This document shows, piece by piece, positions 1 to 25,684 of a stretch of 64,000 nucleotides of DNA; position 1 is the first letter of the stretch, and every line of letters starts with the position of its first letter. The DNA comes from a virus (taxonomy: Duplodnaviria; Heunggongvirae; Uroviricota; Caudoviricetes). A program made the position numbers and the translations under genes. The notes below the pieces were generated by a model that was not told the DNA's origin, searched no databases, and worked only from the letters and a program-made list of their open reading frames with translations. The stretch spans positions 10,278 to 74,277 of IMG/VR virus record IMGVR_UViG_2836824207_000004; one strand, 5' to 3'.

Positions 1-2395
1 CACGTTCTTCTTTTAAATTGAGCTTGTTAAACTGTTCGATCACCGTTTTAGCTAGCGTTTTTTGACTTGGCTCAATAAAATAACGCGTCATCTCTGAACT
101 CAGATCTCGATCAAGTAAGGTTTTTGTTACTTTATTAATAAAATTAAATGGGTGAGCCAACACTTCTGGCGTTTCACCTGTTTTAAGTGTAAGAGCCATC
201 ATATGTTCTTGTGTTTCCAAAGACACGTCCCCGTTTTTATCCACATAGCGTTTGGCTAAACGATAATCGGTTTTTAATGTTTCAATTGCTGCTTTAGTTT
301 CTTCAAATAAAGCGATATGAGTTTCGTTTTCTTCACTTTCTGGAATGTAATCTCGCCCATTTGGTAAATCATCAGCATTTTTAATCGCCGCAACGGATTG
401 AATAAGTTTGCGAAGCACGCCAACATTACGTAGCCCAGAAAAAACTTCAGTTTCCACTTCTCGCCCATCTACGGTACTTTCCTCGCGGGTCTCAATATAG
501 CAAAAATTTTCCAAAAATTGATCCGCACCTTTAATCCCTGTAAGACCATTGACTTTTTCTTCGCCGACAGCCAAAGAAAGCATTGAATAAATTTCTAATG
601 GGGAATTCGTAATAGGGGTTGCCGTGAGACAAAGTACACCATCTTGCTTTTGATTTTGCCCTCGTATATACCAGGCTTTAACCGCACCATTCACACCTCT
701 TGCTGAGGGATCAGCAAGTGAAAGCCATTTAACACGGCTACCAAAATTTCCTTTTTTGCCATTTTTGAAATTATGAGCTTCATCAATCACAAGACTATCA
801 ATGCCCATCAGCTCCAATAATTCGTTTTTCATTTTAGAGCCAATTAATTTTTTCAATTTGGCTAATGCCGATTTAAGCCGCTCATTATCCGCTGTACGTT
901 CTCCAAATTCATATTGGCGATCAAATTGACCTTGTGCCGATAAATAACGTTCAAGCGTATCGTCTTTCAATGAAATGGATTCAAAAGCTTCCATTGTCAT
1001 AAAAATCTTATCGTGCTTATTGTCCAAAATTGACACTAAATCAGCAGGCACTTCACTGGATTTTACGCTGAGATTGCCAGCTTTATCTTCTCTAATACCA
1101 ACAAATAAACAACGTGCAAAAACCTCATCAGCGTAAATGCCTTTTGCCTCTTTTCTCCAGTTAGTCAGCGTCGTATTAGGCACACAGAAAATCGTTTTCT
1201 TTTTAATGTTAATGGATTGTAAATGCTGAATGGTTAATAACGCACTCGCCGTTTTCCCAAGCCCTACATCAAATCCACAGATCCCACCAAATTGACGTGA
1301 TTGCTGGCGAATAAACGCCGCTTGATGAGGGCGGGGTTGGAAATCTGAATTTATCCCTATCATATTTAATGGTTCGCCATTCTCAATATTGCGGAACATT
1401 AACGCATCAGGATCATTGACTTTCTTATCGATTTCACCCATTAATTTTGAATTAGATTTCACCCACGCAGAGAAACGAATATTGGCAGAAGCAAGGATTT
1501 TTTTCATTAATACTCGACGTTCTTTGTCTTCTTCTTTTGTTTTCGCCGCCGTGGTAAAGCTGTGTGTGGTGACAAAGTTCGCTACACGCTTTAATACTTT
1601 GTCTTCAATGCTTTCATAAGAAGATGAACGGGAGGGCTTAAACTCAACCACCTGCTCCCCTTTCGTATTGGTACGAACAATGAAATTGCCCCTGCCATTT
1701 GAAACATATTGATTAAGAAAACGTACACGATCTTCAAGGCTAACAAAACTGGTTGTGATCTCAAAATCCATATCACGCACATTTGCACGCAATAACCGTT
1801 CTTCTGCTGCATTAAGTTGATTAATGAGCTGTATTTTATGTTCCCCCTCAGCTTGAGCAATCGCCTCTTCGTGTAATGTTCGAAAATCTCCAAAGTTTCC
1901 CGAATAATAATCCTCAGCGGAAATAATATTTTCACCGTTTAAGCTCACACACCATTCTTGAGATTGATTTAAATCAATCTCTGGAAAATGTTGTTGGAAA
2001 ATGGCTTTTGAAATTCCTCCATTAAGCCCAAATTTCGCCCCTTGCTCATACAGCAATTTTTCGTATTGTTGTGAAACGCTAAGCGAGGTGTTTTGTTCTG
2101 CTATTTGTGCCGTTTGCCCGAGCCAATACTCAGAAAAACGATTATGTTTTACCTCATAAACTTTAGGCGTTGAAGTCATAATCTTCAATGTGCCTTTCAT
2201 TCGTTTATCAAACCACACAGGGACGCGTGTTTTAGTAAGACGCAAGCGTTTGATTTGCTCTGAAAGCGTAGGGTAGAGTTCAAGTTTGTTAATGTTAGAT
2301 TGATTGGCGTGTTTTTGTTCGGCTTCATCATAAGCCAAAACCACAGTTGCCGTGGTTAAATCATTTAAAGAGAGCATTGTTTTCCCCTTGGTCAT
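1..2395 (-). CDS. SNF2-family DEAD/DEAH-box helicase, N-terminal ~800 aa; gene runs past window start
   Basis: Manual minus-strand translation from ATG at 2393-2395 stays open to position 1. It is absent from the ORF track because no stop lies in the window. Motif I ...RQFGGICGFDVGLGKTASALL (~1230-1270) and the DEAH box SLVIDEAHNFKN (~765-800) are present. The first ~300 aa have no recognised domain. Confidence 0.8.
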   Translation of the reverse strand, partial: MTKGKTMLSLNDLTTATVVLAYDEAEQKHANQSNINKLELYPTLSEQIKRLRLTKTRVPVWFDKRMKGTLKIMTSTPKVYEVKHNRFSEYWLGQTAQIAEQNTSLSVSQQYEKLLYEQGAKFGLNGGISKAIFQQHFPEIDLNQSQEWCVSLNGENIISAEDYYSGNFGDFRTLHEEAIAQAEGEHKIQLINQLNAAEERLLRANVRDMDFEITTSFVSLEDRVRFLNQYVSNGRGNFIVRTNTKGEQVVEFKPSRSSSYESIEDKVLKRVANFVTTHSFTTAAKTKEEDKERRVLMKKILASANIRFSAWVKSNSKLMGEIDKKVNDPDALMFRNIENGEPLNMIGINSDFQPRPHQAAFIRQQSRQFGGICGFDVGLGKTASALLTIQHLQSINIKKKTIFCVPNTTLTNWRKEAKGIYADEVFARCLFVGIREDKAGNLSVKSSEVPADLVSILDNKHDKIFMTMEAFESISLKDDTLERYLSAQGQFDRQYEFGERTADNERLKSALAKLKKLIGSKMKNELLELMGIDSLVIDEAHNFKNGKKGNFGSRVKWLSLADPSARGVNGAVKAWYIRGQNQKQDGVLCLTATPITNSPLEIYSMLSLAVGEEKVNGLTGIKGADQFLENFCYIETREESTVDGREVETEVFSGLRNVGVLRKLIQSVAAIKNADDLPNGRDYIPESEENETHIALFEETKAAIETLKTDYRLAKRYVDKNGDVSLETQEHMMALTLKTGETPEVLAHPFNFINKVTKTLLDRDLSSEMTRYFIEPSQKTLAKTVIEQFNKLNLKEER

Positions 2396-2443: not shown

Positions 2444-2460
2444 TTTTCCTATTAGGAAAA
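2444..2460. promoter_or_regulatory. 17-bp near-palindrome TTTTCCTATTAGGAAAA (copy 1 of 6) in divergent helicase/rha intergenic region
   Basis: Exact motif, repeated at 10631, 20334, 25138 (inverse orientation), 28863 (half) and 35344 (half). All copies sit 30-70 bp upstream of minus-strand late-type genes. Confidence 0.5.
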
Positions 2461-4011: not shown

Positions 4012-4028
4012 CCCCCTTAGTACAATTA

Positions 4029-4301: not shown

Positions 4302-4360
4302 ACCAGTTACCTTTATGATAAAGGCAACTGACATTATTCAGAAAATTAGTAGAGGCAATT

Positions 4361-12536: not shown

Positions 12537-13076
12537 ATGAAATTATTACCTGCTGAAGTGAAAAGTTGGGACGGTGTAAAAATGCGAATCGCCATTCCAG
12601 GCTATACCGATGGAGCAGATCAATTTCCCGAAGCGGAAATTTGCTACCCGCTTGCCGATAGACCCGCTGATACGGGCTATAAAATTCTCCCCGGTGATGC
12701 CATTTGGATTATGTTTAACGGCGGCGATGAAAATAGCCCTATTGTAATGGGCTTTCGCAATAAAAATACAGGAGTCAATAAAGATAAACGCTTTCTTGAG
12801 CATAAAAACTTTGAAACCAAAGCCGAAAATGTAATGAAAGAAAGTGCCAAAACCCACGAAATAACCGCAACAGATTTATTCACCGTAACTAGCGGAAAAA
12901 TTGTCTTTAATGCACCGGTACAGATCAACGGATCATTAAGTGCTTCTGGCGATGTTTCCATAGAAGGCGGATTTAATGCCAAAGGCAATATTTCAACGGA
13001 GGGAGACATTAATGCAACTGGCGATATTCATTCTAACGGCTCTATCACTGACAGTGATGGAGATGGCGGTGCTTAG
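12537..13076 (+). CDS. baseplate spike/assembly protein V-like (179 aa)
   Basis: ILPGDAIWIMFNGGDENSPIVMGF resembles the P2 gpV OB-fold core (..GEQVLILAVGGELDTAFVLPG..). The C-terminus is a beta-helix-like GDVSIEGGFNAKGNISTEGDINATGDIHSNG. Confidence 0.6.
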   Translation: MKLLPAEVKSWDGVKMRIAIPGYTDGADQFPEAEICYPLADRPADTGYKILPGDAIWIMFNGGDENSPIVMGFRNKNTGVNKDKRFLEHKNFETKAENVMKESAKTHEITATDLFTVTSGKIVFNAPVQINGSLSASGDVSIEGGFNAKGNISTEGDINATGDIHSNGSITDSDGDGGA

Positions 13077-13161
13077 TTAAGTTATTTTGTTCTGTTCGCG
13101 TGTAGTAGTATAAATGGTCACCCTACACGCCAACATCATTGAATACCCATTATTCTAACGA

Positions 13162-14154
13162 TTAACTATAATTTCTTGCACTTACCATCAATCCTCTTAC
13201 CCATTGCGGGATTTTCTGGCTATCTAGTCCCATTGATCTCACTTGGGCGATAAGTTCCAACAACCGATTTAAATCAAGATCACTTTCAATCGCAACAAGT
13301 GGCGAATGGTATTGTTCTAATTCGGTGTAAATATCATCAATCAACGTTGGCTTCGTTTCAGCTAATTTGGCATTCACCCAAGTTCCCTTTTTATATTCTT
13401 TAAGTACACCATCAAAATATAAGGTTTCGCCCTCTTGATAGGTGATGACGGGTTCATCTGCGGCATTGAGTAATGCCCAGTCAATCCGTGAACCCTCAAA
13501 ACGACGTAATAATTTAGCAATATTGGCAACACTCTCATCAGACATTACCGCTAAAACATCTTCACCATATTTTGACCGCACTTTGCTTTCTGTACCCAGA
13601 ATATATTGTGGGTTCGCTTTAAAATAACGCCCACTGATAAAGGTTTCCCATAAAACGTTCGCTTCTTTTAATATTTCTGGTGATGAATTTGCCAACTCAT
13701 CAATAATCAGTTTGTTAGGTCGGCTATGTTTCTTAAAGACCAATACATCAGTAACCACATCAGCCCCAGCAGTTTCAAACAGTTTATTCGGCAACCGATA
13801 CGCCCCCATAAATTCCGCTTTTAGAGAAATTTGATGGCGGATTTTGCGATAGCGTGTTCCCGTCATAATGCCTGTGCCACTCATAAACACAGCCAGCCCA
13901 TTCGGACGTAATTTATCTAGCGAACGCAAAATAAAGTAACTTTCTAGGTTTTCTTTTTGATAACGGCTATCTTTAAATTGATTACCCCCGCGATTATCCC
14001 CAAAAGGAACATTGGTAATCACTGCATCAACAATTTCATCTTCTGTCGCAGCAGCAACCGCCTCAAAGGGACTGATCGTAACTTTATGGCTATCATCATT
14101 AAATAAAATCTGATTGATTGTGCCACTCGTCTGATCAAGCTCAATACTTTCCAT
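13162..14154 (-). CDS. N6-adenine DNA methyltransferase C-terminal portion (motif IV NVPF); split from upstream ORF
   Basis: VITNVPFGDNRGG lies about 50 aa from the start. Motif I of the same domain is at the C-terminus of the preceding ORF. The junction is TAATG next to a G5 run. Confidence 0.65.
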   Translation of the reverse strand: MESIELDQTSGTINQILFNDDSHKVTISPFEAVAAATEDEIVDAVITNVPFGDNRGGNQFKDSRYQKENLESYFILRSLDKLRPNGLAVFMSGTGIMTGTRYRKIRHQISLKAEFMGAYRLPNKLFETAGADVVTDVLVFKKHSRPNKLIIDELANSSPEILKEANVLWETFISGRYFKANPQYILGTESKVRSKYGEDVLAVMSDESVANIAKLLRRFEGSRIDWALLNAADEPVITYQEGETLYFDGVLKEYKKGTWVNAKLAETKPTLIDDIYTELEQYHSPLVAIESDLDLNRLLELIAQVRSMGLDSQKIPQWVRGLMVSARNYS

Positions 14155-15080
14155 TAAAACATTTTGGGGGCTGTCGCACTAAAAATCCCCGTTCCCGCAC
14201 AAGGATCAAGCACTTTCCCACCACTAAATCCCATTTCCGTTAGCAAGTCCCACATTCCTTGTGCGATGGGTTTTGGCGTGTAATATTCATAGCTTGATCC
14301 TCGAGTTCCTTCAGCGGTAGTCAACCCACCACCAGATCCAGAATAATGCGATAAAATGATTTTTTGTTCTTGTGTAATGTCATCAATATTCATCTCACCA
14401 CGTTGAACTTTCTGTACAATCTCAATTGCCGCATTGTTGGCCGCTTGTCGTTGAGTTTGAGTTATGCCTTCGGGATTGTAATTAAATAAATCTGTAGGAT
14501 TAACTACTGTTTGTGATTCGTATTTGTCTCCTAGCCCTAAACTTTTTTCATACAATGATTTTAAATCTGAATATTCACCTACTAATTGATAAGATTGAGC
14601 ATCACCAATAGAAACCCAAGCAAAATCGTGCAATTCTTCTTTTTGTAATTTCACGTTTTGAGAGGCATCAACTACCAATAAGAAACGGTGCGATTCTCCG
14701 CCACTTGGTAGCTTTTTTTGCTCTAGAAATTCAACAGTACTAGCTTTAATACCTGTTTCTTCTTTTAATTCACGAATCGCTGCTTGTGCGGGAGTTTCGT
14801 TTTCTTCAATATGTCCGCCTGGGATCCACCATTTACCAGGTTTAAATTTGTCAGAAAGCGAACGTTGAACCAATAATATATTGCGATCTAAATCCTTAAC
14901 CAGCACATCTGCATAGCTATTTTGTTTATTTGACTCACGATCAATCACGCCTAATTGAGCAAGTAAGGCCTGAACCTTACCTGCTAACGCAATTTTTTGA
15001 ATAGGATTTGCTTCCGCTGTCATTGCATCGACAGCATCATTTAATTCGCCTGCCAACTTAATTTTTAATAAAGCATCCAT
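14154..15080 (-). CDS. Nudix hydrolase domain plus N6A-methyltransferase motif I (308 aa); truncated fusion
   Basis: Perfect Nudix box GGHIEENETPAQAAIRELKEETGI. C-terminus VLDPCAGTGIFSATAPKMF* is gamma-class methyltransferase motif I. Confidence 0.75.
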   Translation of the reverse strand: MDALLKIKLAGELNDAVDAMTAEANPIQKIALAGKVQALLAQLGVIDRESNKQNSYADVLVKDLDRNILLVQRSLSDKFKPGKWWIPGGHIEENETPAQAAIRELKEETGIKASTVEFLEQKKLPSGGESHRFLLVVDASQNVKLQKEELHDFAWVSIGDAQSYQLVGEYSDLKSLYEKSLGLGDKYESQTVVNPTDLFNYNPEGITQTQRQAANNAAIEIVQKVQRGEMNIDDITQEQKIILSHYSGSGGGLTTAEGTRGSSYEYYTPKPIAQGMWDLLTEMGFSGGKVLDPCAGTGIFSATAPKMF

Positions 15081-15092
15081 TATCTATTCCCC

Positions 15093-16028
15093 TTATGCCT
15101 GTCTTGCTTTTTCAGTCATTTTGGAAACATAAGCATTTGCAGCCTGCTGAACTAACTCAATATTAGAGCTTTGCAAGCGACTTGCAATCTCTGATAATTT
15201 TGCGTTAAAAGTAGCATCAAATACATTCACATTCCCCTCAATCACATCTTGCAAAAACTGGATATCAGCTTGTTTTTGTGCATTCTCTTCTACATTATTT
15301 TCCATTGAGCTTCCCTCTTCGGCTTCTAATTGATCTAAGTCAATAAGGTTACCATTTTTATCACGAATTTCTAAGATCGTGAGCGTTGCTAATGGTTCGT
15401 CTTCTTGTGAATCATCTAAAATAGCGGTATTATTGTGCAAACCACCTTCAGCATAATTAAAGTTCCCCGCTTGCGTATTGTTACGTCCAAGACTCTGGAA
15501 TGCGTTATCTAAGGTGGTTTTATAGACTGCTGATGAATAAGCAATTAACTCTTCAAATGCCTCTAATTCCCCATTTTCTTTTTCTCCAGCCTTAGCAACA
15601 GCAAGTACTTTCATTCCATCAATGTCAAGCCATTTGTCATAACGGTGGAAAGCAACAAAATCTTTTCTTGGTTTCGTAAGTTCTTCTCTATCCTGAGCAT
15701 TTCCTGTTGTAAATACTTCGACAATTTTCGATACGGCAATAGCATTTAATTTCCCTTTTCTGCCATCACTAACTAGATGCTTAACACTTTGCTTACTGTT
15801 AAATCTGACTTCTTTGCCATCCACCGTTCTAATTGTTTTACCCTGTAAGTTCGCTTTTAACCATTTTTCAACTGCTGTGCTGAGTGCTTTACGGCTTGCA
15901 TTCTCTGGTAGCACTAATTCGGGTAAATTCTCTTCTACGTTATTTTCTATTGCGTTTCCCTGTTCAGCTCCTAATCGATCTAAGTCAATTAAATTCCCAT
16001 ATTTATCGCGAATTTCAAGAATTTCCAC
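15093..16028 (-). CDS. repeat-module protein (311 aa, GTG start), paralogous to the C-terminus of the 1401-aa protein; probably its frameshifted continuation
   Basis: ILEIRDK.GNLIDLD...LPELVLPEN...GMK..A.AKAGEKENGELE modules occur twice here and also in the 1401-aa ORF. The reading frame stays open and homologous up to a TGA at 16113-16115. Confidence 0.55.
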   Translation of the reverse strand: MEILEIRDKYGNLIDLDRLGAEQGNAIENNVEENLPELVLPENASRKALSTAVEKWLKANLQGKTIRTVDGKEVRFNSKQSVKHLVSDGRKGKLNAIAVSKIVEVFTTGNAQDREELTKPRKDFVAFHRYDKWLDIDGMKVLAVAKAGEKENGELEAFEELIAYSSAVYKTTLDNAFQSLGRNNTQAGNFNYAEGGLHNNTAILDDSQEDEPLATLTILEIRDKNGNLIDLDQLEAEEGSSMENNVEENAQKQADIQFLQDVIEGNVNVFDATFNAKLSEIASRLQSSNIELVQQAANAYVSKMTEKARQA

Positions 16029-16060
16029 TAAATAATCAGCGATTTCTTCTTGTGTTTCAT

Positions 16061-19000
16061 CTAAAAATAGCGTACCTTTATTATCAGCGATGGCATAGCC
16101 CCCGAAGGTCTTTCACCATTTGGTGATGTAAGTACTGGGGGTGCGCCATCGCTGTTACTTTCCGCATTATCTAATAACTTATGCGTATAACCGATTAGTT
16201 TACCTGTTACTTCAAGTTCCCCATTCTCTTTTTCGCCTGCTTTGGTTTGTAGCAATAACTTCATTCCGTCAATTTCAACCTGTTTTTGGTAAACGTGAAA
16301 GGCAATGAACTTATCTTTTCTCTCTTTGTAAGTCTCTTCTCTTCCTACAAATATGCCCTGTGAAAAAACCTCCGCTATTTTAGTTAAGGCTTTCGTTTCT
16401 AGCTCGCCTACCTGTGCGTTAAAAGAAAAATGTTCCACACTTTGATCACGGTTAAAATGGACAATTTTCCCATCACTGGTTTTAATGCGTTTACCTTGCA
16501 AATGTGCTTTTAAATAATCTTGAGCGATCGCATTTAACGTTTCACGATTGGCATTCTCAGGCAAGACTAACTCAGGCAAGGTTTCCCCAACAGCATTGCT
16601 TTGCTCTGACTCCACCGTTGTCTCTTGATCTTCTTTATTAGCATTAATTTCCAAAATATCCGTACCAGAGCTAAGAGTTATTTCTGGCAATGTCCCTTTC
16701 ACATAAGCTCGGAAATAATTTTCTACCCCCTCTTTTAATTCAGTCAAACTATCAAAAGTCATTTCTTTTGGTTCACCAGATGACCATTGAATATAGGCTC
16801 TATATTTTAGCGTTTCTAAATTTTGCGACACATAAAAGAAATAGGTTTTACTCCGCCCCTTTGTAGCAAAATATGTTCCACTAATATAGCCTTTTTCCTT
16901 ACGTAATGGGCGATAATGTTTTTCTTCTTGAATTAACTCCTCGGCCAGTTGGATCGCATCGGTAACACTTTTTGCGTTTTCATTAGCACCAGATACTTTA
17001 GCTTGTCCACCATTGTTTTCTTTGGCATCAGTAACATAGCCCTTTTGTGGCGAAACATTGACCCAATAGCTTTTTTTGCCATCACTGTACCAATTGGCAG
17101 TAATATGAATGTTGTAAGGCTCAGCAGTTTTATGCACAGAATAAGTACAAGATCTTCCCTCAACCGAAAATGGCTCTAGCGTATATCCTGCTTGTTTAAA
17201 TTGTTCGATTTCTTCATCACGCCCAGGTAAGAAAGGTCTATAGCCCTCGCCTTTATAGAGTAAAGAGGTGTGAAGTAAAACAGGTTCAGATTGAATGTTT
17301 TCTGGTTGAGCATTGCTGTTTTCAGGCTCTACTTCCTCATCTTCATCTTTCAATTCAACCCAATTGCCGTTTTCGTCTTTATACTCAACGAAAAGATTAA
17401 GCACATAGCCATCATCATCGACACCATCTAATGCTGGCTGGGATTGTGAGACACTTAAGGCTTCTTTGATTGAGGCAATATGTTCACGTTCAAGCTCTGC
17501 TTGGGCGATATTCCCCTCTTGCTCGTTAATTGGCAAATTATTTTCAAGGACGCTTAATGCTGCTTCAAGCTGATCTTGTGCAAGTTGTGTCGCGTCAATA
17601 ACCAATCCGTCATCAAGGGTTGCGGCATAGTTTAATGCAATCATTAAGTTAGCTTGTTGCGTATCATCAAGTAAAAGTGGATTGAGGCTATTTTTCACTT
17701 GCTTACCATTTAGAATGGCGGTATTATCAGGCTGTAGCTCAGATTGAGCTTGGATTAGGCGACTCTCACCGTATTTGCTCGGCAAGTTTGTCGCCTTTTC
17801 TACATCAATACCATCTAGAATAGCGATATTATCAAGCAGTAGCTCAGATGATTGAGCTTGGTAAAGGTTGGAAACAGAGGATTTGTTAGCCTCGTACGAT
17901 CCAACCTTTTTCATTTCTATGCTATCCATAATTGCATCGAAACCGTCTTTACTATTGCATTCTCCCTCTAAGTTTTCTATACTGTTTCCAGTTGCACTTT
18001 TTGCATTGAATGTCCCTGGAATTGTGTTCAGGAAGGGTTCTATGCTATCAAGTGCAACTTTATTTTTCTCAAGCGTTAAATCATAATGAAGTAATCCATT
18101 AGTGTCCTCTTCAATTACGACATTAATTTTTAATGGTCTATTATCAACCAAAACGTGATTTTCTAAATGAAAATATCTTAATACATTAGGCTTTTTATCG
18201 CTTTTAAAATTATCTTGGATATAGTCCTTGCTGCCTTTAGCCGTTTTGATAATCTCTTCAAGTTGTGCTAATGCTTTTAATTTTAGAGGGTTGGCTGAGT
18301 TTGCTAACGTTTTCTTAATACCTCGCTTGCGGATCTCAATATCTCTATCTAAAAATAGGTTTTTAACCCACTTTCCTTTTAAAGTTTCAGTTAAATGTTC
18401 TAACACTTTACTCCGTAATGCCTTTTTGCCCTCTTCCGTCTCAGTGTCAAACTCGCCAAATTCTTTGCCTGAAATCACTATAGGTTGATCTTCTTGTAAT
18501 TTATCCTCTGTTTTTTCTACTTGTACACTTCCCTCTTCCTCCTCAATCACATCGCCTTTTTCATCTAAAAGAATGATATTGATCATATATTCTTCTTGAG
18601 CTTCATCTAGAATAATGTTATTGTTTTCTCTAGCAAAAGCCGTTATGGTTGATTGATCTTTCTCTGGATAGGTATCAGAGCCGATATCAATATTATCCAT
18701 AATGGCTTTTGATTTTCTTGGTAAAATGAAGTCATAATGCAATAGCCCTTTTTCATCTTGCTCAATCAACACGTCAAAATTCACGTTTTCGCCAGCAATA
18801 TTTACGCTATTTGCAAAACGATAATAGCCTTTTACATTACGCTTTTTCCCCTTTTTCGTGTTTTCTTCCCAAGCTGCTATACCATTCTTAGGTTTTGCTG
18901 TTGCAATAACCTGTTCTATAACAGCCGCAATTTGCAATTTTTTAGGATTAGCAGACCACGCGATAAGCTCGTTAATTCCACGTTGTCTAATTTCAATATC

Positions 19001-20266
19001 TTGATCTAACGCTTTATTTCTAATCCATTTTCCTTTTAAGTTATTTTCTAAGTACTCACGCACTGCCATTCTAAACTTAGTCTTCCCCTCTTCGCTCTCC
19101 GTATCAAACTCGCCAAATTCTTTGCCTGAAATCGCTATAGGTTGTTCTTTATCTTCTTCCTTGTCACTTTCCACTTGACTTAAACGCAATGCTTTTAATG
19201 CCTTATCAACAGGTTCATTAATCATTTCTGCGATTGCCTCAGGGGTATCAGTTAATTCATCGGTGTAGCTAAGGTTTAATTCAGGAATTGAATAAGTTAC
19301 GCCGATCATATTTGTGCCTGATTTTGAATAATGATAGGTTTCGGTTAAAACGTACCCCTCTTTACTTAATTCTTTGTAACTCTCACCTTTCCACCCCTTA
19401 TCTCTCAACATATTGCGAACAGCAACCACTCGGGCTTGGTAAATATTATCTAACTCATCTTCGCGGTCTGATAAACGATCTAAGGCTTTTAATTCAGCGT
19501 AAAGCGAAGCGTTAAGTTCGCTATCCATTAAGCGTTCATCTTCAAGGAGCTGGTCCACCTCTTCTTGTGCCTTCAAATATTGAAGTTCATCAATTTTTTT
19601 CAATTTCTGAGCAAGAATTTTTTCCTTTTCCGCAACACGCGTACGCAACGCATTGACACGTTCAAGGCGTTCTTTGCGATTTTTATTTTGGCGAGCAAAG
19701 GCAGCAGAATTTTTAGCGGCAATTTTCATAATGCGTAATGCCACTTGACGCACATCAATATCCTTACCTTTTTCTGGGGCAACTACAATCGTAATATCTT
19801 TTTTGTTTAGCAACCATTTGAAAGAAATCACCTCATCTTGTGGGGTAATTTTTTTCGGGGTTGTATCGGGATTATGAAAATAGATAGAAACGGTTTGCCC
19901 ATCAGAGAGTTCAAATAAAGCGACTACATTTGCCGTGCCTAATCGCATAAACGGATCGGAGATTTGATAACCTACCACAGTAAGCGGTACTGTTTTCCCT
20001 TCACTATCTTTTACATCAACGCCTGATCGGGACATCACACGTTGCATAATATTCATTTTTGCTGTCAATTTGGCATATTGTGCAATAATTGCATCCATAA
20101 TCAGTGCATTACTTGGTTCTGTTCCATCAAGAACATCATCCATTGTGCAAGGCTCATACATCAGCCCTGCTTTCATATCATCGTTTCGTAATGCGTCAAA
20201 TAATTGCTCAACAGTGGTATTTACTGGGTTTTGTTGGTTATCCCAAAAAGTCAGATTAAGTGCCAT
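16061..20266 (-). CDS. very large (1401 aa) multi-module protein with internal ~170-aa repeats; polyvalent/Dar-like virion protein candidate
   Basis: Repeat pair PIAISGKEFGEFDTESEEGK...LLHYDFILPRK / PIVISGKEFGEFDTETEEGK...LLHYDLTLEKN. Coiled-coil segment. C-terminal module paralogous to 15093-16028. Confidence 0.7.
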   Translation of the reverse strand: MALNLTFWDNQQNPVNTTVEQLFDALRNDDMKAGLMYEPCTMDDVLDGTEPSNALIMDAIIAQYAKLTAKMNIMQRVMSRSGVDVKDSEGKTVPLTVVGYQISDPFMRLGTANVVALFELSDGQTVSIYFHNPDTTPKKITPQDEVISFKWLLNKKDITIVVAPEKGKDIDVRQVALRIMKIAAKNSAAFARQNKNRKERLERVNALRTRVAEKEKILAQKLKKIDELQYLKAQEEVDQLLEDERLMDSELNASLYAELKALDRLSDREDELDNIYQARVVAVRNMLRDKGWKGESYKELSKEGYVLTETYHYSKSGTNMIGVTYSIPELNLSYTDELTDTPEAIAEMINEPVDKALKALRLSQVESDKEEDKEQPIAISGKEFGEFDTESEEGKTKFRMAVREYLENNLKGKWIRNKALDQDIEIRQRGINELIAWSANPKKLQIAAVIEQVIATAKPKNGIAAWEENTKKGKKRNVKGYYRFANSVNIAGENVNFDVLIEQDEKGLLHYDFILPRKSKAIMDNIDIGSDTYPEKDQSTITAFARENNNIILDEAQEEYMINIILLDEKGDVIEEEEGSVQVEKTEDKLQEDQPIVISGKEFGEFDTETEEGKKALRSKVLEHLTETLKGKWVKNLFLDRDIEIRKRGIKKTLANSANPLKLKALAQLEEIIKTAKGSKDYIQDNFKSDKKPNVLRYFHLENHVLVDNRPLKINVVIEEDTNGLLHYDLTLEKNKVALDSIEPFLNTIPGTFNAKSATGNSIENLEGECNSKDGFDAIMDSIEMKKVGSYEANKSSVSNLYQAQSSELLLDNIAILDGIDVEKATNLPSKYGESRLIQAQSELQPDNTAILNGKQVKNSLNPLLLDDTQQANLMIALNYAATLDDGLVIDATQLAQDQLEAALSVLENNLPINEQEGNIAQAELEREHIASIKEALSVSQSQPALDGVDDDGYVLNLFVEYKDENGNWVELKDEDEEVEPENSNAQPENIQSEPVLLHTSLLYKGEGYRPFLPGRDEEIEQFKQAGYTLEPFSVEGRSCTYSVHKTAEPYNIHITANWYSDGKKSYWVNVSPQKGYVTDAKENNGGQAKVSGANENAKSVTDAIQLAEELIQEEKHYRPLRKEKGYISGTYFATKGRSKTYFFYVSQNLETLKYRAYIQWSSGEPKEMTFDSLTELKEGVENYFRAYVKGTLPEITLSSGTDILEINANKEDQETTVESEQSNAVGETLPELVLPENANRETLNAIAQDYLKAHLQGKRIKTSDGKIVHFNRDQSVEHFSFNAQVGELETKALTKIAEVFSQGIFVGREETYKERKDKFIAFHVYQKQVEIDGMKLLLQTKAGEKENGELEVTGKLIGYTHKLLDNAESNSDGAPPVLTSPNGERPSGAMPSLIIKVRYF

Positions 20267-20333
20267 ATCAAATTATCCTTTTGTGAAAATAATAGGCACA
20301 GCATACGCACTTACTTTAAAGCGATGATTGCAA

Positions 20334-20350
20334 TTTTCCTATTAGGAAAA
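20334..20350. promoter_or_regulatory. TTTTCCTATTAGGAAAA motif copy 3
   Basis: Exact 17-mer between divergent starts 20266 (-) and 20417 (+). Confidence 0.5.
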
Positions 20351-20416
20351 ATACCGCACTTTTTCTCACTGTATTTTTCATAATACGGGTATATATCTCA
20401 ATAAAAAGGAAATGCA

Positions 20417-21283
20417 ATGACAAAGATGGTAACACCGATCATTCGGTACAACTTAAAAGAACGTATGCGTCGTTTTAACGGTACGGTAAGAAATTTTAAT
20501 ATTCCCAAATTGGTTGAAAATATTAACTCCCCCGCAATGCAAGAGCGGGTAAAACTTGGGGATTTACACGGTTATTATGGACATTGGCCACGTACAAAAT
20601 TTGGGGCTGAGCCGAAAGAAGGCGGGGTAATTGATGGCAAGGTCATCAATCTTGAACCTTGCTTTCGTACGGTTTATTTAAAAGCCTATGAAGATGGCAC
20701 AATTGAACATCAAGCAGAATTTTTTGATAATGATCCGGGTCGTAAAGCCTATGCTCAATCACAAGAAAAGAGCGGTGGTTTTTCGAGTGTTATTTTAGGT
20801 CGTGATCATTCTTTTCACGGTTTTGATTATGTCTTATTCCCGAATTATTCAGCGAATCGCCCTTATTCTGTAATGCTTGACTCGGCAGACGAAAATGTTG
20901 AGCAAGTCGTGCTTGTTCTTGATGAAATAGAAACCAGCACGGGGATCGCTCCAGAGTTACAAGCAGACTATATAGACTATCTACTAGACAGTATAGACCA
21001 ACTCAAAAAGGATAAGCTGCAGCTACTTACTGAGAATAAACAGCTTGCTGATACTCTTGCAGAAACGCTTAATCATAATGATTTACTCACTGATGACGTG
21101 CTTTTTTTGCAACAGAAATTAGTTCGACAAAAAGAAAACGAAAAATTTAATCCGATCGACCTTGATGACGCAATTTCTCAAGCTAACCACTTTAAAACGG
21201 CTAAAATTGAAACGGTTGAAACCGAAGAACCCAAAGCGATCACCGAATCAATGAAGCGGTTTAATCAAGTTTGGGGATTTTAA
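20417..21283 (+). CDS. hypothetical protein (288 aa) with C-terminal coiled coil
   Basis: Track ORF. Motif copy 3 lies upstream. Confidence 0.5.
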   Translation: MTKMVTPIIRYNLKERMRRFNGTVRNFNIPKLVENINSPAMQERVKLGDLHGYYGHWPRTKFGAEPKEGGVIDGKVINLEPCFRTVYLKAYEDGTIEHQAEFFDNDPGRKAYAQSQEKSGGFSSVILGRDHSFHGFDYVLFPNYSANRPYSVMLDSADENVEQVVLVLDEIETSTGIAPELQADYIDYLLDSIDQLKKDKLQLLTENKQLADTLAETLNHNDLLTDDVLFLQQKLVRQKENEKFNPIDLDDAISQANHFKTAKIETVETEEPKAITESMKRFNQVWGF

Positions 21284-22985: not shown

Positions 22986-23020
22986 AAAAGTGCGGTCATT
23001 TTCTACCGCACTTTTTTCTT
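22986..23020. terminator. bidirectional terminator (inverted USS pair)
   Basis: aaagtgcggt-cattttct-accgcacttttt between convergent operons. Confidence 0.6.
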
Positions 23021-23453
23021 AGCTAAATTGTTGCTCAAATTCTATATCATAAAGCGAATAGAAACTCCCATCTTCCCAGATCGCAAAATCACGATTTCCT
23101 TGAAAATAATTCGCATTATAGTAGTCTTTAAATTCCCAAGCTGCCATTAATGTTGCTAATTCATCAATCTGTAATGTAGCGGGATTTTTGACCGTATAAG
23201 CATCACGCAATAGAATTTCTGTTTCCCCCTCATAGCCAACAAATCCTTTAGCGTGCATAATCGCTTTTACTGACCACCAATAAGGCCCAAATTTAAGGTA
23301 ATTCAGCGGCAATTTCTTGATAAAACGATCGGTGATAGCATAAATTTCTTTATGATAATCGAGATTGGGAGAATGCTGTAAAAAATGGTGTTTGGCATCA
23401 TTAAATAAATCAATTAAATACTCATATTCAAGAAAAAATTCTGTCGCTTTCAT
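23019..23453 (-). CDS. hypothetical protein (144 aa)
   Basis: Track ORF downstream of the 544-aa gene. Confidence 0.45.
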   Translation of the reverse strand: MKATEFFLEYEYLIDLFNDAKHHFLQHSPNLDYHKEIYAITDRFIKKLPLNYLKFGPYWWSVKAIMHAKGFVGYEGETEILLRDAYTVKNPATLQIDELATLMAAWEFKDYYNANYFQGNRDFAIWEDGSFYSLYDIEFEQQFS

Positions 23454-23462: not shown

Positions 23463-25097
23463 TTAATAATCGTTCTGTTGAGATTGTGAAGATATGATAG
23501 CTTTTGCATAAAGCTCCGCTTCATCTTGATCTAACAACATCTGTTTTGTCATAAATAGCACCATCTCTTTTTCACTAAATCCGAGATTTTTTGTTTGCTC
23601 TAGGGTCTGAGAGATCAGCCCCGCACTGCCTATCGCATTAGCTCGCGTTTGCTGGCGTTCTGATTCAAAGGCTGAAATTGAGCCATAGTAATTAATTTGG
23701 AATGGACGATTTGTGTTATTCCAGCATTTACCGTATTTATATAGCATATGTTTATCAATCAAATCGATAAAAAAATCAGCCATCGCAGCTCGAATAACTC
23801 GGCTAGACTCTGCAATTTGTGCCGACATTCTGAAAAATCCGCCATCACCTAATCCGCCAGACAACTGATCAGCAAAACCTAGCATAGACAAATCAATTCC
23901 TAATGTTCCCGCCAATAAACGTGCGTGAAGCATAATATCCTCTATTGAGACTGAGCCTTGACGACGAGAGCCCATTCCTTCGCCCTGTGTAACGACTTGC
24001 TTCTCTTCGTGGGTAAATAATACGTGGCGAATGCGGCCATATTGTGGCTCACCTTGCATTGCTTTATCTGCAAGGAGTTTAGATTTAAGCAGCGTTTGCT
24101 TAACATTTTGTGCAAGTTTTATTTGCTGTTCTCGTGTACCCCCGCTCATATTCACCATAATAAAACTTTCATCAATGGCATCGACTAAACGCTGTCCGAC
24201 AAGGGAAGCAAGAGAAATATAGAAATCGGTAAAAGGTTTTTCCGCAGTGAATAATAACGATCCGCCAATCATAGCGGGAACTATCGGCAATCGGTCAGGG
24301 TTATCTTCAGCAATATTATATTTATAGGATTTTGACAACATTCCCGCCTGCGGAACAGTAACAAATCTCGCCATTGCCATTCTAGCTATTTGTAAAGTCG
24401 TTAGTCTGGTCAAATGATGTCGTGTTGATCCCGCTAAAAATCCTACGGTTCGCCCGCCTTGTTCATAAGGCAAAATCAACGTAGGGTGAACCATTTCATC
24501 AGTTACTAACCCGACAAGCCCTTTGCCTTTCTCATAATAGGTTCTTGCATAACCATCACCAAAAGCCAACGCGTTGTAGGCAACAGAAAAGGCGTGCTTG
24601 TTAAACATTTCAGATAAATCAGAACGCACCTCCTCCAAAACTTTTTTATCCACTTCTGAAGCATTTGCGGCATCTTCAATAAAAACAACATCACCACTGG
24701 TTTCGTGTCCGCCCAATGCAGCTGTAACGTGCGTTTTAAGTGCTATCGAAATAACGGGATCTTTTTCCATTAATCGCCATTGCTGGTAAATTGCCGAACG
24801 AGAACGAGGCGGAGCATTACTTGTTCCCATCAATCCTGCAATAGTTAATCCACTTAAATCATCACCATAAGGCAACTCATAGGTTGAAGCCCATTGCTGA
24901 CTTTGACTAATCTCTTTTTCTTCAGGAAAAAGTAAACGATGTCTATCATCATCTAATAAGCGAGAGATTGAATTCGGTTTCGCGACAAGTGCGGTACTCT
25001 TTTCCGCTTGTTTTTCACCCAATCCAAACATACTTTTAAAAAAAGGCTTTTTTTTCAAAGGAAGTTCCATTCTCTTATGCCGTTCAAAATTTTTCAT
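23463..25097 (-). CDS. large structural-type protein (544 aa); portal-like is a guess
   Basis: Size and late-operon position only. No Walker motifs, so not a terminase. No motif match remembered. Confidence 0.3.
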   Translation of the reverse strand: MKNFERHKRMELPLKKKPFFKSMFGLGEKQAEKSTALVAKPNSISRLLDDDRHRLLFPEEKEISQSQQWASTYELPYGDDLSGLTIAGLMGTSNAPPRSRSAIYQQWRLMEKDPVISIALKTHVTAALGGHETSGDVVFIEDAANASEVDKKVLEEVRSDLSEMFNKHAFSVAYNALAFGDGYARTYYEKGKGLVGLVTDEMVHPTLILPYEQGGRTVGFLAGSTRHHLTRLTTLQIARMAMARFVTVPQAGMLSKSYKYNIAEDNPDRLPIVPAMIGGSLLFTAEKPFTDFYISLASLVGQRLVDAIDESFIMVNMSGGTREQQIKLAQNVKQTLLKSKLLADKAMQGEPQYGRIRHVLFTHEEKQVVTQGEGMGSRRQGSVSIEDIMLHARLLAGTLGIDLSMLGFADQLSGGLGDGGFFRMSAQIAESSRVIRAAMADFFIDLIDKHMLYKYGKCWNNTNRPFQINYYGSISAFESERQQTRANAIGSAGLISQTLEQTKNLGFSEKEMVLFMTKQMLLDQDEAELYAKAIISSQSQQNDY

Positions 25098-25213: not shown

Positions 25214-25684
25214 TTATTTCGCTTGAAGTTCGTTTAAGGTTTTGTCTGCATTTGCAATTAACTCATCTAACTCTTGTTCTCGCTGAGTTAATGTTGCTTC
25301 CTCACTGGTAATCGTTGATTTAATTTTAGGCGGCAAAGCAACTTTTGTTCTCGCTAATTTTTTCTGGAAATCTAAACGTCCTTTATCCAATTTAGCGATA
25401 ATTTCTTGTATTGCTTGATCAATATTTTGTTGGTTCTTAATAGGCATTTCTTTGCCATTGATTTTCACCTTAAAAATATCGCCTGTTTGTTTAATTTGAA
25501 AAATGACTTGCTGTGAATCAGCGAACCCTAACGCCAATTCTTTATAAGAAATCCCACTTGTACGTTTAATCGCTGACAACTCACTTGAAGCTACTTCAAT
25601 TCCCGCTTTGGTGAAATACTTAATCACCTCTTTCGTGCTTTTGTCATCTTTACCATTCATTTTTTCGAAATCAAAAACAATCAC
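25214..25684 (-). CDS. hypothetical protein (156 aa)
   Basis: Track ORF at the end of the lysis operon, with a terminator hairpin downstream. Confidence 0.45.
   Translation of the reverse strand: MIVFDFEKMNGKDDKSTKEVIKYFTKAGIEVASSELSAIKRTSGISYKELALGFADSQQVIFQIKQTGDIFKVKINGKEMPIKNQQNIDQAIQEIIAKLDKGRLDFQKKLARTKVALPPKIKSTITSEEATLTQREQELDELIANADKTLNELQAK

What the first reader, a model, noticed from the sequence alone, without database searches (positions are those of the whole stretch)
13162..20266. Dar-like cluster of very large, probably virion-injected multi-domain proteins (repeat modules, Nudix, N6A-methyltransferase)
Four consecutive minus-strand ORFs (1401, 311, 308 and 330 aa) are separated by 0-33 nt and sit behind one TTTTCCTATTAGGAAAA promoter-associated motif. 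They include duplicated ~170-aa modules, a perfect Nudix box, and an N6A-methyltransferase whose motif I and motif IV lie in adjacent ORFs. An SNF2 helicase (1-2395), a SWIM-finger protein and a 1014-aa muralytic ejection-type protein lie behind copies of the same motif. This is the domain mix of polyvalent, capsid-packaged anti-restriction proteins such as P1 DarB (methyltransferase plus helicase) and the Dar operon proteins. A Nudix-plus-methyltransferase fusion in that setting is one I do not recognise as described.
Basis: partly seen in the sequence, partly recalled or inferred. Interest (0 to 1): 0.85.

Follow-up and report, generated by a model that had tools for sequence, protein, structure and literature searches.

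The report
P1-like prophage Dar antirestriction genes

Summary
The ORFs, the palindromic motif, the repeat modules, the Nudix box and the methyltransferase motifs are all real. The four ORFs are two genes. The window is A. paragallinarum FARPER-174 (CP034110), a PacBio-only assembly. Over 21 kb it differs from three other strains by 0-1 substitutions and exactly two 1-nt homopolymer deletions (G6>G5, C6>C5). Repairing them gives a 1724-aa DarA_N + 4xLPD3 polyvalent protein and a 639-aa leader-Nudix-N6A-methyltransferase, both present intact in 14 and 19 other contigs.

The Dar reading holds. Evidence: DarA_N (7.8e-40), LPD3, 39% identity to the P1 DarB methyltransferase, Hdf-like and Ulx-like genes, and the portal and Pro genes nearby.

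DarB is split: its helicase part is a separate 1714-aa gene about 11 kb away. The methyltransferase half carries a MutT/NudG-like Nudix cassette, which other strains replace with LPD3 at the same locus and a 57%-identical metagenomic phage retains.

DarA_N/LPD3 polyvalent proteins are numerous and already named in databases, and virion-packaged Nudix domains have been proposed before. This is a new variant of a known kind. Packaging, antirestriction activity and the Nudix substrate are untested.

The parts
20334..20350 (.). 17-bp palindrome TTTTCCTA-T-TAGGAAAA in the divergent intergenic region upstream of the darA-like gene. Candidate late-operon operator or promoter element.
   Evidence: 4 sites in the window against 0.06 matches expected; a TAnnnT hexamer lies 13-16 nt downstream in 3 of the 4 copies. 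The sequence is unrelated to the P1 -22 box AAGT[GT]A[CT]T.
15093..20266 (-). One gene, read as two ORFs (1401 + 311 aa) in this assembly. It encodes a 1724-aa DarA-related polyvalent protein: DarA_N, coiled coil, LPD3 x2, unassigned modules, LPD3 x2, and a conserved C-terminal helical tail.
   Evidence: Pfam; adding one G gives a 1724-aa protein that exists exactly in 14 other contigs (P0050)..
19706..20101 (-). DarA_N domain (aa 56-187)
   Evidence: PF18788, 7.8e-40; 33-36% identity to DarA of P1, P7 and SJ46 over aa 110-252.
18602..19114 (-). LPD3 module A1
   Evidence: 45% identical to A2
18017..18529 (-). LPD3 module A2
16157..16576 (-). LPD3 module B1
   Evidence: phrog_30637, 1.9e-42. 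(47% identical to B2).
16099..16103 (-). G5 run. One G is missing relative to three other strains, which creates the ORF1/ORF2 break.
15468..15923 (-). LPD3 module B2 (in 'ORF2')
   Evidence: (3.9e-21)
13162..15080 (-). One gene, read as two ORFs (308 + 330 aa) in this assembly. It encodes a 639-aa protein: N-terminal helical leader, Nudix, helical pre-methyltransferase domain, DarB-type N6-adenine methyltransferase, and a DarB-homologous C-terminal region.
   Evidence: P0001, 639 aa, in 19 contigs..
14946..15080 (-). N-terminal leader of about 45 aa, predicted as a helical hairpin. It is conserved in homologues whatever domain follows it. Candidate capsid-targeting sequence.
   Evidence: alignment. 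(helices 3-22 and 26-45). The analogy is to the N-terminal 30-aa targeting signal of P1 DarB (PMC9024508).
14529..14918 (-). Nudix hydrolase domain (aa 55-184), MutT/NudG-like
   Evidence: 2.2e-23. (PDB 3hhj, 9.6e-9; 2rrk). (Nudix box invariant in 9 homologues). (fold matches to MutT, NudI, NudG and DR1025).
14166..14170 (-). C5 run. One C is missing relative to three other strains, which creates the ORF3/ORF4 break between methyltransferase motifs I and II.
13729..14459 (-). Helical pre-methyltransferase domain plus gamma-class N6A methyltransferase core (YYTPKP, DPCAGTG, IELD, NVPF)
   Evidence: 39% identity to P1 DarB aa 47-392. (fold matches to EcoKI HsdM, M.TaqI and M.BseCI).
1..2395 (-). 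N-terminal 798 aa of a separate 1714-aa SNF2 helicase gene that corresponds to the helicase part of DarB. It runs off the window; the full gene is L007:14098-19242.
   Evidence: phrog_11801 positions 535-1302, 3.9e-162. (P1 DarB aa 787-1560, 28% identity, 7e-65). (Xanthomonas phage Rb1 fused protein aa 641-1689, 38% identity)..
2444..2460 (.). Copy of the palindromic motif upstream of the helicase gene
25214..25684 (-). Hdf-like protein (stand-alone DarA_N, 156 aa)
   Evidence: DarA_N, 5.5e-16. (P1 Hdf 32% identity, 1e-8; Rb1 homologue 46%, 5e-40).
23019..23453 (-). Ulx-like protein (144 aa), immediately downstream of the portal gene
   Evidence: phrog_1629 Ulx-like anti-restriction, 2.5e-12..
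23463..25097 (-). Portal protein (context: head morphogenesis), preceded by a motif copy at 25138-25154
   Evidence: phrog_1497, 4e-138. (P1 Prt 25% identity, 5e-37)..
20417..21283 (+). Homologue of P1 Pro (annotated 'head processing' in the P1 record), divergent from the darA-like gene
   Evidence: P1 Pro 34% identity, 5.6e-20

Best explanation
The region is the late-expressed Dar (defence against restriction) module of a P1-related prophage integrated in the Avibacterium paragallinarum FARPER-174 chromosome.

Gene structure (shown). There are two genes, not four:
- a 1724-aa DarA-related polyvalent protein (DarA_N, a coiled coil, four LPD3 modules in two tandem pairs, unassigned modules, and a conserved C-terminal tail);
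- 12 nt downstream, a 639-aa protein made of a helical leader of about 45 aa, a MutT/NudG-like Nudix hydrolase, and the methyltransferase part of DarB.

The helicase part of DarB is a separate 1714-aa gene about 11 kb away, behind another copy of the same palindromic motif. In this PacBio-only assembly each of the two genes is cut by a single-base deletion in a G6 or C6 run. This is most probably a homopolymer consensus error, and less probably a real inactivating mutation.

Mechanism (inferred from P1):
1. The operon is transcribed late together with the head genes.
2. The DarA_N protein, with the Hdf-like protein, docks on the inner capsid wall and recruits the other Dar components.
3. The N-terminal leader targets the Nudix-methyltransferase protein into the procapsid.
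4. The proteins leave the head with the DNA at infection.
5. The methyltransferase and the SNF2 translocase act on the incoming DNA in cis to blunt type I restriction.
6. The Nudix domain hydrolyses a nucleoside-diphosphate-linked small molecule in the newly infected cell. This is most likely an NTP-type or other nucleotide that the host uses as a signal or toxin. The substrate is unknown.
For: Identity of the window: CP034110.1; PMC6473136: PacBio RS II, HGAP3, 2,425,949 bp.

Two genes rather than four:
- over 21 kb this strain differs from three other strains by 0-1 substitutions and exactly two indels, G6>G5 and C6>C5.
- the G-repaired 1724-aa protein exists exactly in 14 contigs. The 1401-, 311- and 308-aa products occur on one contig only.
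- the intact 639-aa protein occurs in 19 contigs.
- other strains have 1724-aa and 639-aa genes in the same context.

Dar homology:
- DarA_N at 7.8e-40 and four LPD3 copies.
- 33-36% identity to DarA of P1, P7 and SJ46.
- the DarB PHROG family and P1 DarB align in two pieces to two different genes.
- Xanthomonas phage Rb1 has both pieces in one 2238-aa protein.
- Hdf-like, Ulx-like, Pro, portal and BplA homologues.

One transcription unit: one search finds no terminator-like site on the coding strand and no excess of promoter-like sites inside the cluster. One search places the motif upstream.

Nudix domain intact and conserved.

The architecture is not an accident:
- a phage only 57% identical has DarA_N-LPD3, then Nudix-LPD3-methyltransferase, then a separate 1728-aa SNF2 gene.
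- other A. paragallinarum strains carry LPD3-methyltransferase (726 aa) at the same locus.

Against: - There is no direct evidence here that any of these proteins is in a virion, is ejected, methylates DNA or protects against restriction.
- No DdrA or DdrB homologue was found in the window, and no processing metallopeptidase (MPTase), so the P1 assembly pathway cannot be transferred unchanged.
- The leader has no detectable sequence similarity to the N-terminus of P1 DarB.
- The Nudix domain scores far below every curated equivalog cut-off (best is MutT, 48.6 bits against 148), so its substrate is open.
- The C5 allele is also present in an independent read set (SRR26939744, contig L002, 100% identical over 2328 nt). 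At least that frameshift may therefore be real, in which case the methyltransferase is inactive in this strain.
Confidence: 0.7

Rival explanations
1. The frameshifts are real. In FARPER-174 and close relatives the darA-like gene and the Nudix-methyltransferase gene are pseudogenes in a decaying or domesticated prophage, so no functional Dar module is made in this strain.
For: The C5 allele also occurs in a contig from another sequencing run (SRR26939744), which is 100% identical to the window over 2328 nt. The genome announcement reports 106 pseudogenes.
Against: Over 21 kb there are 0-1 substitutions but two indels, both in G/C homopolymers of adjacent genes. That pattern fits residual homopolymer errors in a PacBio RS II-only assembly better than mutation. 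The 1401-, 311- and 308-aa products are recorded on one contig only. The Logan contig starts 18 nt before the C run, so it may reflect an assembly problem at that run.
Confidence: 0.25
2. There are four separate functional proteins as read. The methyltransferase is assembled from two polypeptides, or full-length products are made by programmed -1 frameshifting or transcriptional slippage at the G and C runs.
For: Both junctions need a -1 shift and both lie at homopolymer runs. ORF4 starts with an ATG that overlaps the ORF3 stop codon.
Against: Other strains encode both proteins as uninterrupted ORFs from otherwise identical DNA, so no recoding is needed. By inspection of the sequence, neither junction has an X XXY YYZ slippery heptamer. 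The break falls between methyltransferase motifs I and II, inside the Rossmann fold.
Confidence: 0.03
3. The Nudix-methyltransferase is not an injected antirestriction factor. It acts inside the producing cell, for example by methylating progeny DNA before packaging, with the Nudix domain cleaning the nucleotide pool.
For: The methyltransferase is separated from the helicase, which Iyer et al. consider strictly required for DarB-type action. The Nudix domain most resembles house-cleaning NTP pyrophosphohydrolases of the MutT, NudG and NudI types.
Against: The gene is the second in an operon with a DarA_N polyvalent protein, among head and tail genes. It keeps 39% identity to the DarB methyltransferase and the DarB-specific C-terminal region. 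A helicase gene homologous to DarB is retained in the same phages. The N-terminal leader is conserved regardless of the cargo domain behind it, which fits a targeting signal.
Confidence: 0.12
4. The cluster belongs to a conjugative element rather than a phage, since polyvalent proteins also occur in conjugative elements.
For: LPD3 and N6A methyltransferase/SNF2 dyads occur in both kinds of element.
Against: Portal, Pro, tape-measure, tail tube, baseplate and tail-fibre genes surround it. [quoted passage not shown]
Confidence: 0.01

Closest known systems
Phage P1 DarB (2255 aa; N6A methyltransferase + SF2/SNF2 helicase; head-packaged; protects against EcoK/EcoB type I restriction)
   Same: The methyltransferase region is homologous (39% identity, P1 aa 47-392), and so is the helicase region (28% identity, P1 aa 787-1560). 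The motif IV variant NVPF and the YYTPKP motif are the same. Both lie in a P1-like late-gene context with portal and Ulx.
   Different: Here the two halves are separate genes about 11 kb apart (639 aa and 1714 aa). The methyltransferase half sits directly after the darA-like gene and carries an N-terminal leader plus a Nudix domain that P1 DarB lacks. The N-termini show no similarity.
Phage P1 DarA / Hdf (DarA_N family, inner-capsid proteins)
   Same: The DarA_N domain is present (7.8e-40), with 32-36% identity to P1 DarA over about 140-210 aa. A separate Hdf-like DarA_N protein is also present.
   Different: The protein is 1724 aa against 639 aa in P1. Downstream of DarA_N it has four LPD3 modules and other cassettes joined by a recurring linker. 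No lydA/lydB, ddrA or ddrB genes were found in the same operon.
Polyvalent proteins of phages and conjugative elements (Iyer, Burroughs, Anand, de Souza, Aravind 2017, PMC5512222)
   Same: It has several effector and LPD domains in one polypeptide, a phage morphogenesis context, DarA_N as a phage-type domain, a DarB-type methyltransferase, and rapid cassette shuffling between orthologues.
   Different: That paper describes the methyltransferase as nearly always fused to the helicase, and its main text does not list Nudix among polyvalent-protein domains. No processing metallopeptidase (MPTase) was found here.
Xanthomonas phage Rb1 (PQ569993.1): internal head protein, metallopeptidase, and 2238-aa 'chromatin remodeling complex ATPase'
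   Same: It is the best phage match for all three proteins: 40% to DarA_N, 44.5% to the methyltransferase and 35-38% to the helicase. The order is the same, with the darA-like gene before the DarB-like gene.
   Different: In Rb1 the methyltransferase and helicase are one protein, a DdrB-like metallopeptidase lies between it and the darA-like gene, and tblastn with P0001 aligned only aa 210-632, so the Nudix part found no match in Rb1.
Virion-associated phage Nudix proteins (T4 NudE clade fused to MuF, portal or prohead protease; Iyer et al. 2022, PMC9503650)
   Same: A Nudix domain encoded among head genes, and presumably packaged and injected. A portal-Nudix PHROG family also hits this domain (phrog_15528).
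   Different: Here the Nudix domain is fused to a DarB-type methyltransferase. It most resembles MutT/NudG/NudI-type NTP pyrophosphohydrolases rather than NudE/NadM ADP-ribose-type enzymes (NudE 29.6 bits against MutT 48.6 bits).

Membership tests
P1-type Dar antirestriction system | DarA_N-domain head protein (DarA) | tested here: met
   Pfam DarA_N at 7.8e-40. tblastn gives 33-36% identity to DarA of P1, P7 and SJ46. The NCBIfam DarA equivalog scores 88 bits, below its 350-bit cut-off, so this is a relative and not an equivalog.
P1-type Dar antirestriction system | Hdf (stand-alone DarA_N partner) | tested here: met
   Window 25214-25684(-): DarA_N at 5.5e-16; P1 Hdf at 32% identity, 1e-8.
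P1-type Dar antirestriction system | DarB: methyltransferase and SF2 helicase in one ~250-kDa polypeptide | tested here: not met
   Both halves are present and homologous, but they are separate genes of 639 and 1714 aa.
P1-type Dar antirestriction system | Ulx | tested here: met
   Window 23019-23453(-): phrog_1629 'Ulx-like anti-restriction' at 2.5e-12. tblastn with P1 Ulx gave no hit at 1e-3, so only profile-level similarity supports this.
P1-type Dar antirestriction system | DdrA and DdrB | tested here: not met
   tblastn with P1 DdrA, P1 DdrB and the Rb1 metallopeptidase gave no hit in the window at E<=1e-3. Only the 64-kb window was searched.
P1-type Dar antirestriction system | Proteins incorporated into the capsid, ejected at infection, and protective against type I restriction in cis | not testable with these tools
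   Inferred only from homology, late-gene context and P1 data.
Polyvalent proteins (Iyer et al. 2017) | Two or more effector or LPD domains in one polypeptide of a phage or conjugative element | tested here: met
   DarA_N plus four LPD3 copies in the 1724-aa protein. Nudix plus methyltransferase in the 639-aa protein.
Polyvalent proteins (Iyer et al. 2017) | Linkage to virion packaging or late genes | tested here: met
   Portal, Pro, tape-measure, tail and baseplate genes flank the cluster.
Polyvalent proteins (Iyer et al. 2017) | Processing peptidase (MPTase) in cis or nearby | tested here: not met
   No peptidase family was hit in the proteins scanned. A Pro homologue lies next door.
Gamma-class (EcoKI/TaqI-like) N6-adenine DNA methyltransferase | SAM-binding motif I, the catalytic (D/N)PP(Y/F)-type motif IV, and the N-terminal TP motif helix | tested here: met
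   YYTPKP, VLDPCAGTG and NVPF are present, the last identical to P1 DarB's NVPF. Pfam N6_Mtase at 1.5e-10. Fold matches to EcoKI HsdM, M.TaqI and M.BseCI. Activity is untested, and the gene is frameshifted in this assembly.
Nudix hydrolase superfamily | Nudix box GX5EX7REUXEEXGU on a Nudix fold | tested here: met
   The box is perfect. Pfam NUDIX at 2.2e-23. The catalytic residues are invariant in 9 homologues down to 28% identity. The predicted fold matches MutT, NudI, NudG and DR1025 (model mean pLDDT 70.9).
MutT (8-oxo-dGTP diphosphatase) equivalog | Score above the curated family cut-off | tested here: not met
   48.6 bits against a cut-off of 148. NudG-type scores 47.6 against 156.

The most novel reading that the evidence does not exclude
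The Nudix cassette on the DarB-type methyltransferase is a capsid-delivered anti-defence enzyme in its own right. On this reading it enters with the DNA and destroys a host nucleotide-based immune molecule at the entry site, extending the Dar system beyond restriction-modification. Candidates include a chain-terminating or deaminated NTP, an alarmone, or an NDP-linked signal. The split of DarB into methyltransferase and helicase genes would then be what allows different N-terminal cargo cassettes (Nudix or LPD3) to be swapped onto a common packaging leader.
Probability: 0.2. Interest if true: 0.65.

Novelty: new variant of a known kind. Interest (0 to 1): 0.35.

Why it matters
If the inference holds, the Dar system of P1-like phages is a modular delivery platform rather than a fixed gene set. 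It would combine a DarA_N scaffold protein carrying exchangeable cassettes with a short N-terminal leader that can load different enzymes (Nudix, LPD3, methyltransferase) into the capsid. A packaged MutT/NudG-like Nudix joined to an antirestriction methyltransferase would suggest that injected proteins also target nucleotide-based defences.

The natural separation of the DarB methyltransferase and helicase gives a simple genetic system for asking whether the two activities must be physically coupled.

On the practical side, the finding shows that the CP034110 annotation splits two genes because of homopolymer indels.

Tried and rejected
- Megablast of 13000-20500 against 50,697 phage records gave no match. 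Only protein-level searches were informative.
- Programmed frameshifting was considered and rejected. Intact alleles exist in otherwise identical DNA, and neither junction has a slippery heptamer on inspection.
- I tested whether the palindromic motif is the P1 Lpa-type late promoter. The P1 -22 boxes (AAGT[GT]A[CT]T) are unrelated in sequence. A TAnnnT hexamer follows the motif at variable spacing (13-16 nt) in 3 of 4 copies, so a promoter role stays plausible but unproven. I did not look for an Lpa homologue.
- The sigma-70 promoter and terminator scan of the cluster found nothing above background.
- A regex for the SWIM finger (CxCx6-25CxH) found no hit in ORFs of 80 aa or more. The 159-aa ORF at 3420-3899 has no Pfam hit.
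- I tried to assign a Nudix substrate from sequence. No family cut-off was reached. By eye I saw no ADP-ribose-type conserved proline, NADH-type SQPWPFPxS motif or Ap4A-type tyrosine. The region upstream of the box resembles the generic Nudix consensus and is not diagnostic.
- tblastn with P1 Sit, DdrA, DdrB, LydA/B, PmgA and gp16 found nothing in the window at 1e-3.
- The unassigned modules of the 1724-aa protein (about aa 750-1225) had no Pfam hit even at E<=1. I did not model their structure.

Full report
**Observation**

The four minus-strand ORFs exist at exactly the stated coordinates: 16061-20266 (1401 aa), 15093-16028 (311 aa), 14154-15080 (308 aa) and 13162-14154 (330 aa). The gaps are 32 nt and 12 nt, and the last pair overlaps by 1 nt. 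The 17-mer TTTTCCTATTAGGAAAA lies at 20334-20350. It recurs exactly at 2444, 10631 and 25138 (central base complemented in the last copy). That is 8 strand matches, against 0.06 matches expected by chance. Each copy lies 33-68 nt upstream of a minus-strand gene start: the SNF2 gene, the 1014-aa tape-measure/GH19 gene, the darA-like gene and the portal gene.

Pfam gives the following:
- ORF1: DarA_N (aa 56-187, 7.8e-40) plus three LPD3 copies.
- ORF2: LPD3.
- ORF3: NUDIX (2.2e-23) plus a weak N-terminal N6_Mtase match.
- ORF4: N6_Mtase (1.5e-10).

The Nudix box GHIEENETPAQAAIRELKEETGI is canonical. The repeat modules are two tandem pairs of LPD3-containing cassettes. A1/A2 are 45% identical over 171 aa and B1/B2 are 47% identical over 211 aa.

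**The four ORFs are two genes**

ORF1>ORF2 and ORF3>ORF4 each need a -1 frame change. ORF2 and ORF3 are in the same frame but are separated by TAA, an in-frame TAG and a Shine-Dalgarno sequence (AAGGGGA), which makes that a true gene boundary.

The ORF2 frame stays open upstream of its GTG. There it encodes the same linker (...LFLDETQEEIADYLVEILEIRDKYGNLIDL) that recurs between modules elsewhere in the protein. Adding one G to the G5 run at 16099-16103 fuses ORF1 and ORF2 into a 1724-aa protein. That exact sequence is in the protein collection as 'LPD3 domain-containing protein [Avibacterium paragallinarum]' on 14 contigs. The 1401-aa and 311-aa products occur on a single contig.

An intact 639-aa 'NUDIX domain-containing protein' occurs on 19 contigs. 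It reads ...SATAPQNVLMESIELD..., which means C6 where the window has C5 at 14166-14170.

An exact look-up identifies the window as A. paragallinarum FARPER-174, CP034110.1. This is a PacBio RS II/HGAP3-only assembly (PMC6473136). Aligning 21 kb of this strain with three other strains gives 0-1 substitutions and exactly two indels, these two homopolymer deletions. In the other strains the locus carries a 1724-aa gene and a 639-aa gene 12 nt apart.

So the 'methyltransferase motifs I and IV in adjacent ORFs' are a frameshift. It is most probably a homopolymer consensus error. One caveat remains: a 2.3-kb contig from another run (SRR26939744) is 100% identical to the window and also has C5, although it begins only 18 nt before the run. 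A real mutation therefore cannot be excluded.

**What it is**

The surroundings are a P1-related myovirus prophage:
- portal (phrog_1497, 4e-138; P1 Prt 25% identity);
- a P1 Pro homologue (34% identity);
- a baseplate protein (P1 BplA 23% identity);
- tail fibre, tail tube and tail proteins;
- a tape-measure protein with a GH19 domain.

The DarA_N region aligns to DarA of P1, P7, SJ46 and D6 at 27-36% identity. It aligns best (40%) to the 'internal head protein' of Xanthomonas phage Rb1.

The C-terminus of ORF3 plus ORF4 match phrog_11801, the family that contains P1 DarB, at positions 74-510. The SNF2 ORF at 1-2395 matches the same family at positions 535-1302 (3.9e-162).

By BLASTP, P1 DarB aa 47-392 aligns to aa 211-571 of the 639-aa protein (39% identity, 3e-68). 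P1 DarB aa 787-1560 aligns to aa 307-1057 of the full 1714-aa helicase protein (28% identity, 7e-65). The full helicase gene was recovered from the same genome. In phage Rb1 both parts lie in one 2238-aa protein, and the break between the two Avibacterium proteins maps to Rb1 aa ~612-641. DarB is therefore split here. The methyltransferase half lies immediately after the darA-like gene. The helicase half is about 11 kb away, behind another copy of the palindromic motif.

The window also encodes an Hdf-like stand-alone DarA_N protein at 25214-25684 (5.5e-16) and an Ulx-like protein at 23019-23453 (phrog_1629, 2.5e-12). No DdrA, DdrB or metallopeptidase homologue was found in the window.

**The Nudix-methyltransferase protein**

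An AlphaFold model (mean pLDDT 70.9, 9-sequence alignment) shows five parts:
- an N-terminal helical hairpin (aa 3-45);
- a Nudix fold (aa 55-184);
- a disordered linker;
- a helical domain;
- the methyltransferase core and an alpha/beta C-terminal region.

Foldseek matches the methyltransferase to type I HsdM (EcoKI, Vibrio vulnificus), M.TaqI and M.BseCI. It matches the Nudix domain to MutT, NudI, NudG (ORF135) and DR1025. This agrees with the sequence searches: PDB 3hhj MutT at 9.6e-9 and 2rrk CTP pyrophosphohydrolase, and NCBIfam MutT at 48.6 bits and the NudG type at 47.6 bits. All of these are far below the curated cut-offs.

The Nudix catalytic residues are invariant across nine homologues down to 28% identity, so the domain is under selection. 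Its substrate cannot be assigned from sequence.

The N-terminal leader (MxALxKxKL...NPxxKxxLAxxVQxLxxQLG) is kept at the N-terminus whether the next domain is Nudix or LPD3. [quoted passage not shown] By analogy, and not by sequence similarity, I propose the leader is a capsid-targeting sequence.

**Conservation and modularity**

A metagenomic phage whose methyltransferase protein is only 57% identical has the same layout. It has an Hdf-like gene, holin and endolysin genes, a DarA_N-LPD3 gene (1096 aa), a Nudix-LPD3-methyltransferase gene (841 aa) 2 nt later, and a separate SNF2 gene (1728 aa) 6 kb further on. The split DarB and the N-terminal Nudix are therefore stable features of a clade.

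Within A. paragallinarum, other strains carry different genes at the same locus between identical flanking genes: a 1429- or 1512-aa darA-like gene and an LPD3-methyltransferase of 726 aa. The methyltransferase part of that protein is 96% identical to the one here. Nudix and LPD3 are thus exchangeable cassettes.

Homologues of the 1724-aa protein share the DarA_N/coiled-coil head and a C-terminal tail (...QFLQDVI.G..DV....F...). Between them they carry different cassettes, joined by a recurring linker (GYVLNLFV.DKDGN.I.DE / ILEIRDKNGNLIDL). More than 378 DarA_N-containing polyvalent relatives were found. They combine DarA_N with further families (PF18823, PF18763, PF18809, PF18796, PF18812), and several are already named 'defense against restriction DarA-related protein'.

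**How it most likely works**

- Shown: gene structure, domain content, homology to DarA, Hdf, DarB and Ulx, late-gene context, a single transcription unit with no coding-strand terminator-like site or promoter excess inside it, and conservation of the Nudix active site.
- Inferred from P1: cryo-EM shows 55 DarA-Hdf pairs on the inner capsid surface (PMC12810830), and the virion proteome and DarB targeting signal are described in PMC9024508. On that basis the DarA_N protein and the Hdf-like protein would dock inside the procapsid and recruit the other components. The leader would load the Nudix-methyltransferase. The proteins would leave with the DNA. The methyltransferase and the SNF2 translocase would protect the incoming DNA from type I restriction.
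- Speculative: the Nudix domain removes a nucleotide-type host signal or toxic nucleotide at entry.

**Comparison with the literature**

Iyer et al. 2017 (PMC5512222) define polyvalent proteins. They list DarA_N as phage-specific and state that the DarB-type methyltransferase is 'nearly always' fused to an SF2 helicase. Nudix appears once in the main text, only as a neighbour of InPase domains. Iyer et al. 2022 (PMC9503650) propose that Nudix proteins, mainly of the T4 NudE clade fused to MuF, portal or prohead protease, are packaged in virions. I found no paper that describes a Nudix-DarB methyltransferase fusion or a split DarB.

**Verdict**

The four-ORF anatomy is an artefact or strain-specific lesion, and the family is well populated and already named. 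The split DarB and the Nudix cassette are a modest new variant of a known system. Interest 0.35.

Noticed in passing
window 2444-2460, 10631-10647, 20334-20350, 25138-25154 (possible degenerate copy at 35346-35358): A perfect 8+1+8 palindrome, TTTTCCTA(A/T)TAGGAAAA, precedes four late (structural or Dar) transcription units. Two of the copies lie in divergent intergenic regions. It is unrelated in sequence to the P1 Lpa -22 box. It is too short-looped to form a hairpin, so it is probably the site of a dimeric late regulator.
   Followed up: partly
L009-L011 (other A. paragallinarum strains) against window 13162-20266: At the same locus, between identical flanking genes, other strains carry a 1429- or 1512-aa darA-like gene, an extra 82-aa ORF, and an LPD3-methyltransferase (726 aa) in place of Nudix-methyltransferase. 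This is allelic cassette exchange within one prophage lineage.
   Followed up: partly
window 15093-20266 (protein P0050) and its homologues P0067-P0093: A recurring inter-module linker (for example NIILLDEKGDVIEEEEG, LNLFVEYKDENGNWVELKDEDEE, ILEIRDKNGNLIDLDQLEAEEG) separates the cassettes. It could be a recombination joint or a prohead-protease cleavage site. P1 major capsid protein is processed between E120 and S121 (PMC9024508).
   Followed up: no
L002 (Logan contig SRR26939744_1410) = window 13162-14189 and downstream: An independent read set yields a contig 100% identical to the window that also has the C5 allele. The contig starts only 18 nt upstream of the C run, which may mean length heterogeneity at that run in the sample.
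   Followed up: partly
window 16592-18016 (aa ~750-1225 of the 1724-aa protein): About 475 aa between LPD3 pairs A and B have no Pfam hit, apart from a small PHROG hit (phrog_3376, aa 895-939). The stretch includes two compact-looking modules (VLLHTSLLYKGEGYRPF... and HYRPLRKEKGYISGTYF...) that are conserved in the A. paragallinarum alleles.
   Followed up: no
window 2608-5257 (+ strand): A plus-strand island lies between the tail genes and the DarB-helicase gene. It carries a pRha/ORF11CD3 antirepressor-like gene, a 159-aa ORF with no hits, and a KilA-N protein. GC content dips to 0.358 over 2001-4000.
   Followed up: no
window 29825-32437: The tail-fibre gene (870 aa, phrog_2915/7489) sits in the GC-richest stretch of the prophage (0.47 against about 0.39), which suggests the receptor-binding region was acquired horizontally.
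   Followed up: no
window 50860-50935 and 51003-52265: A tRNA-Asp(GTC) gene is followed by a GC-richer segment (0.43-0.46) with ORFs overlapping on both strands. This could be a prophage boundary or attachment site, or host DNA.
   Followed up: no
L007:19276-20808 (just beyond window position 1): A 510-aa gene convergent with the DarB-helicase gene has weak Terminase_6N/helicase-type P-loop hits (E 0.0015-0.04). It may be the terminase large subunit.
   Followed up: no
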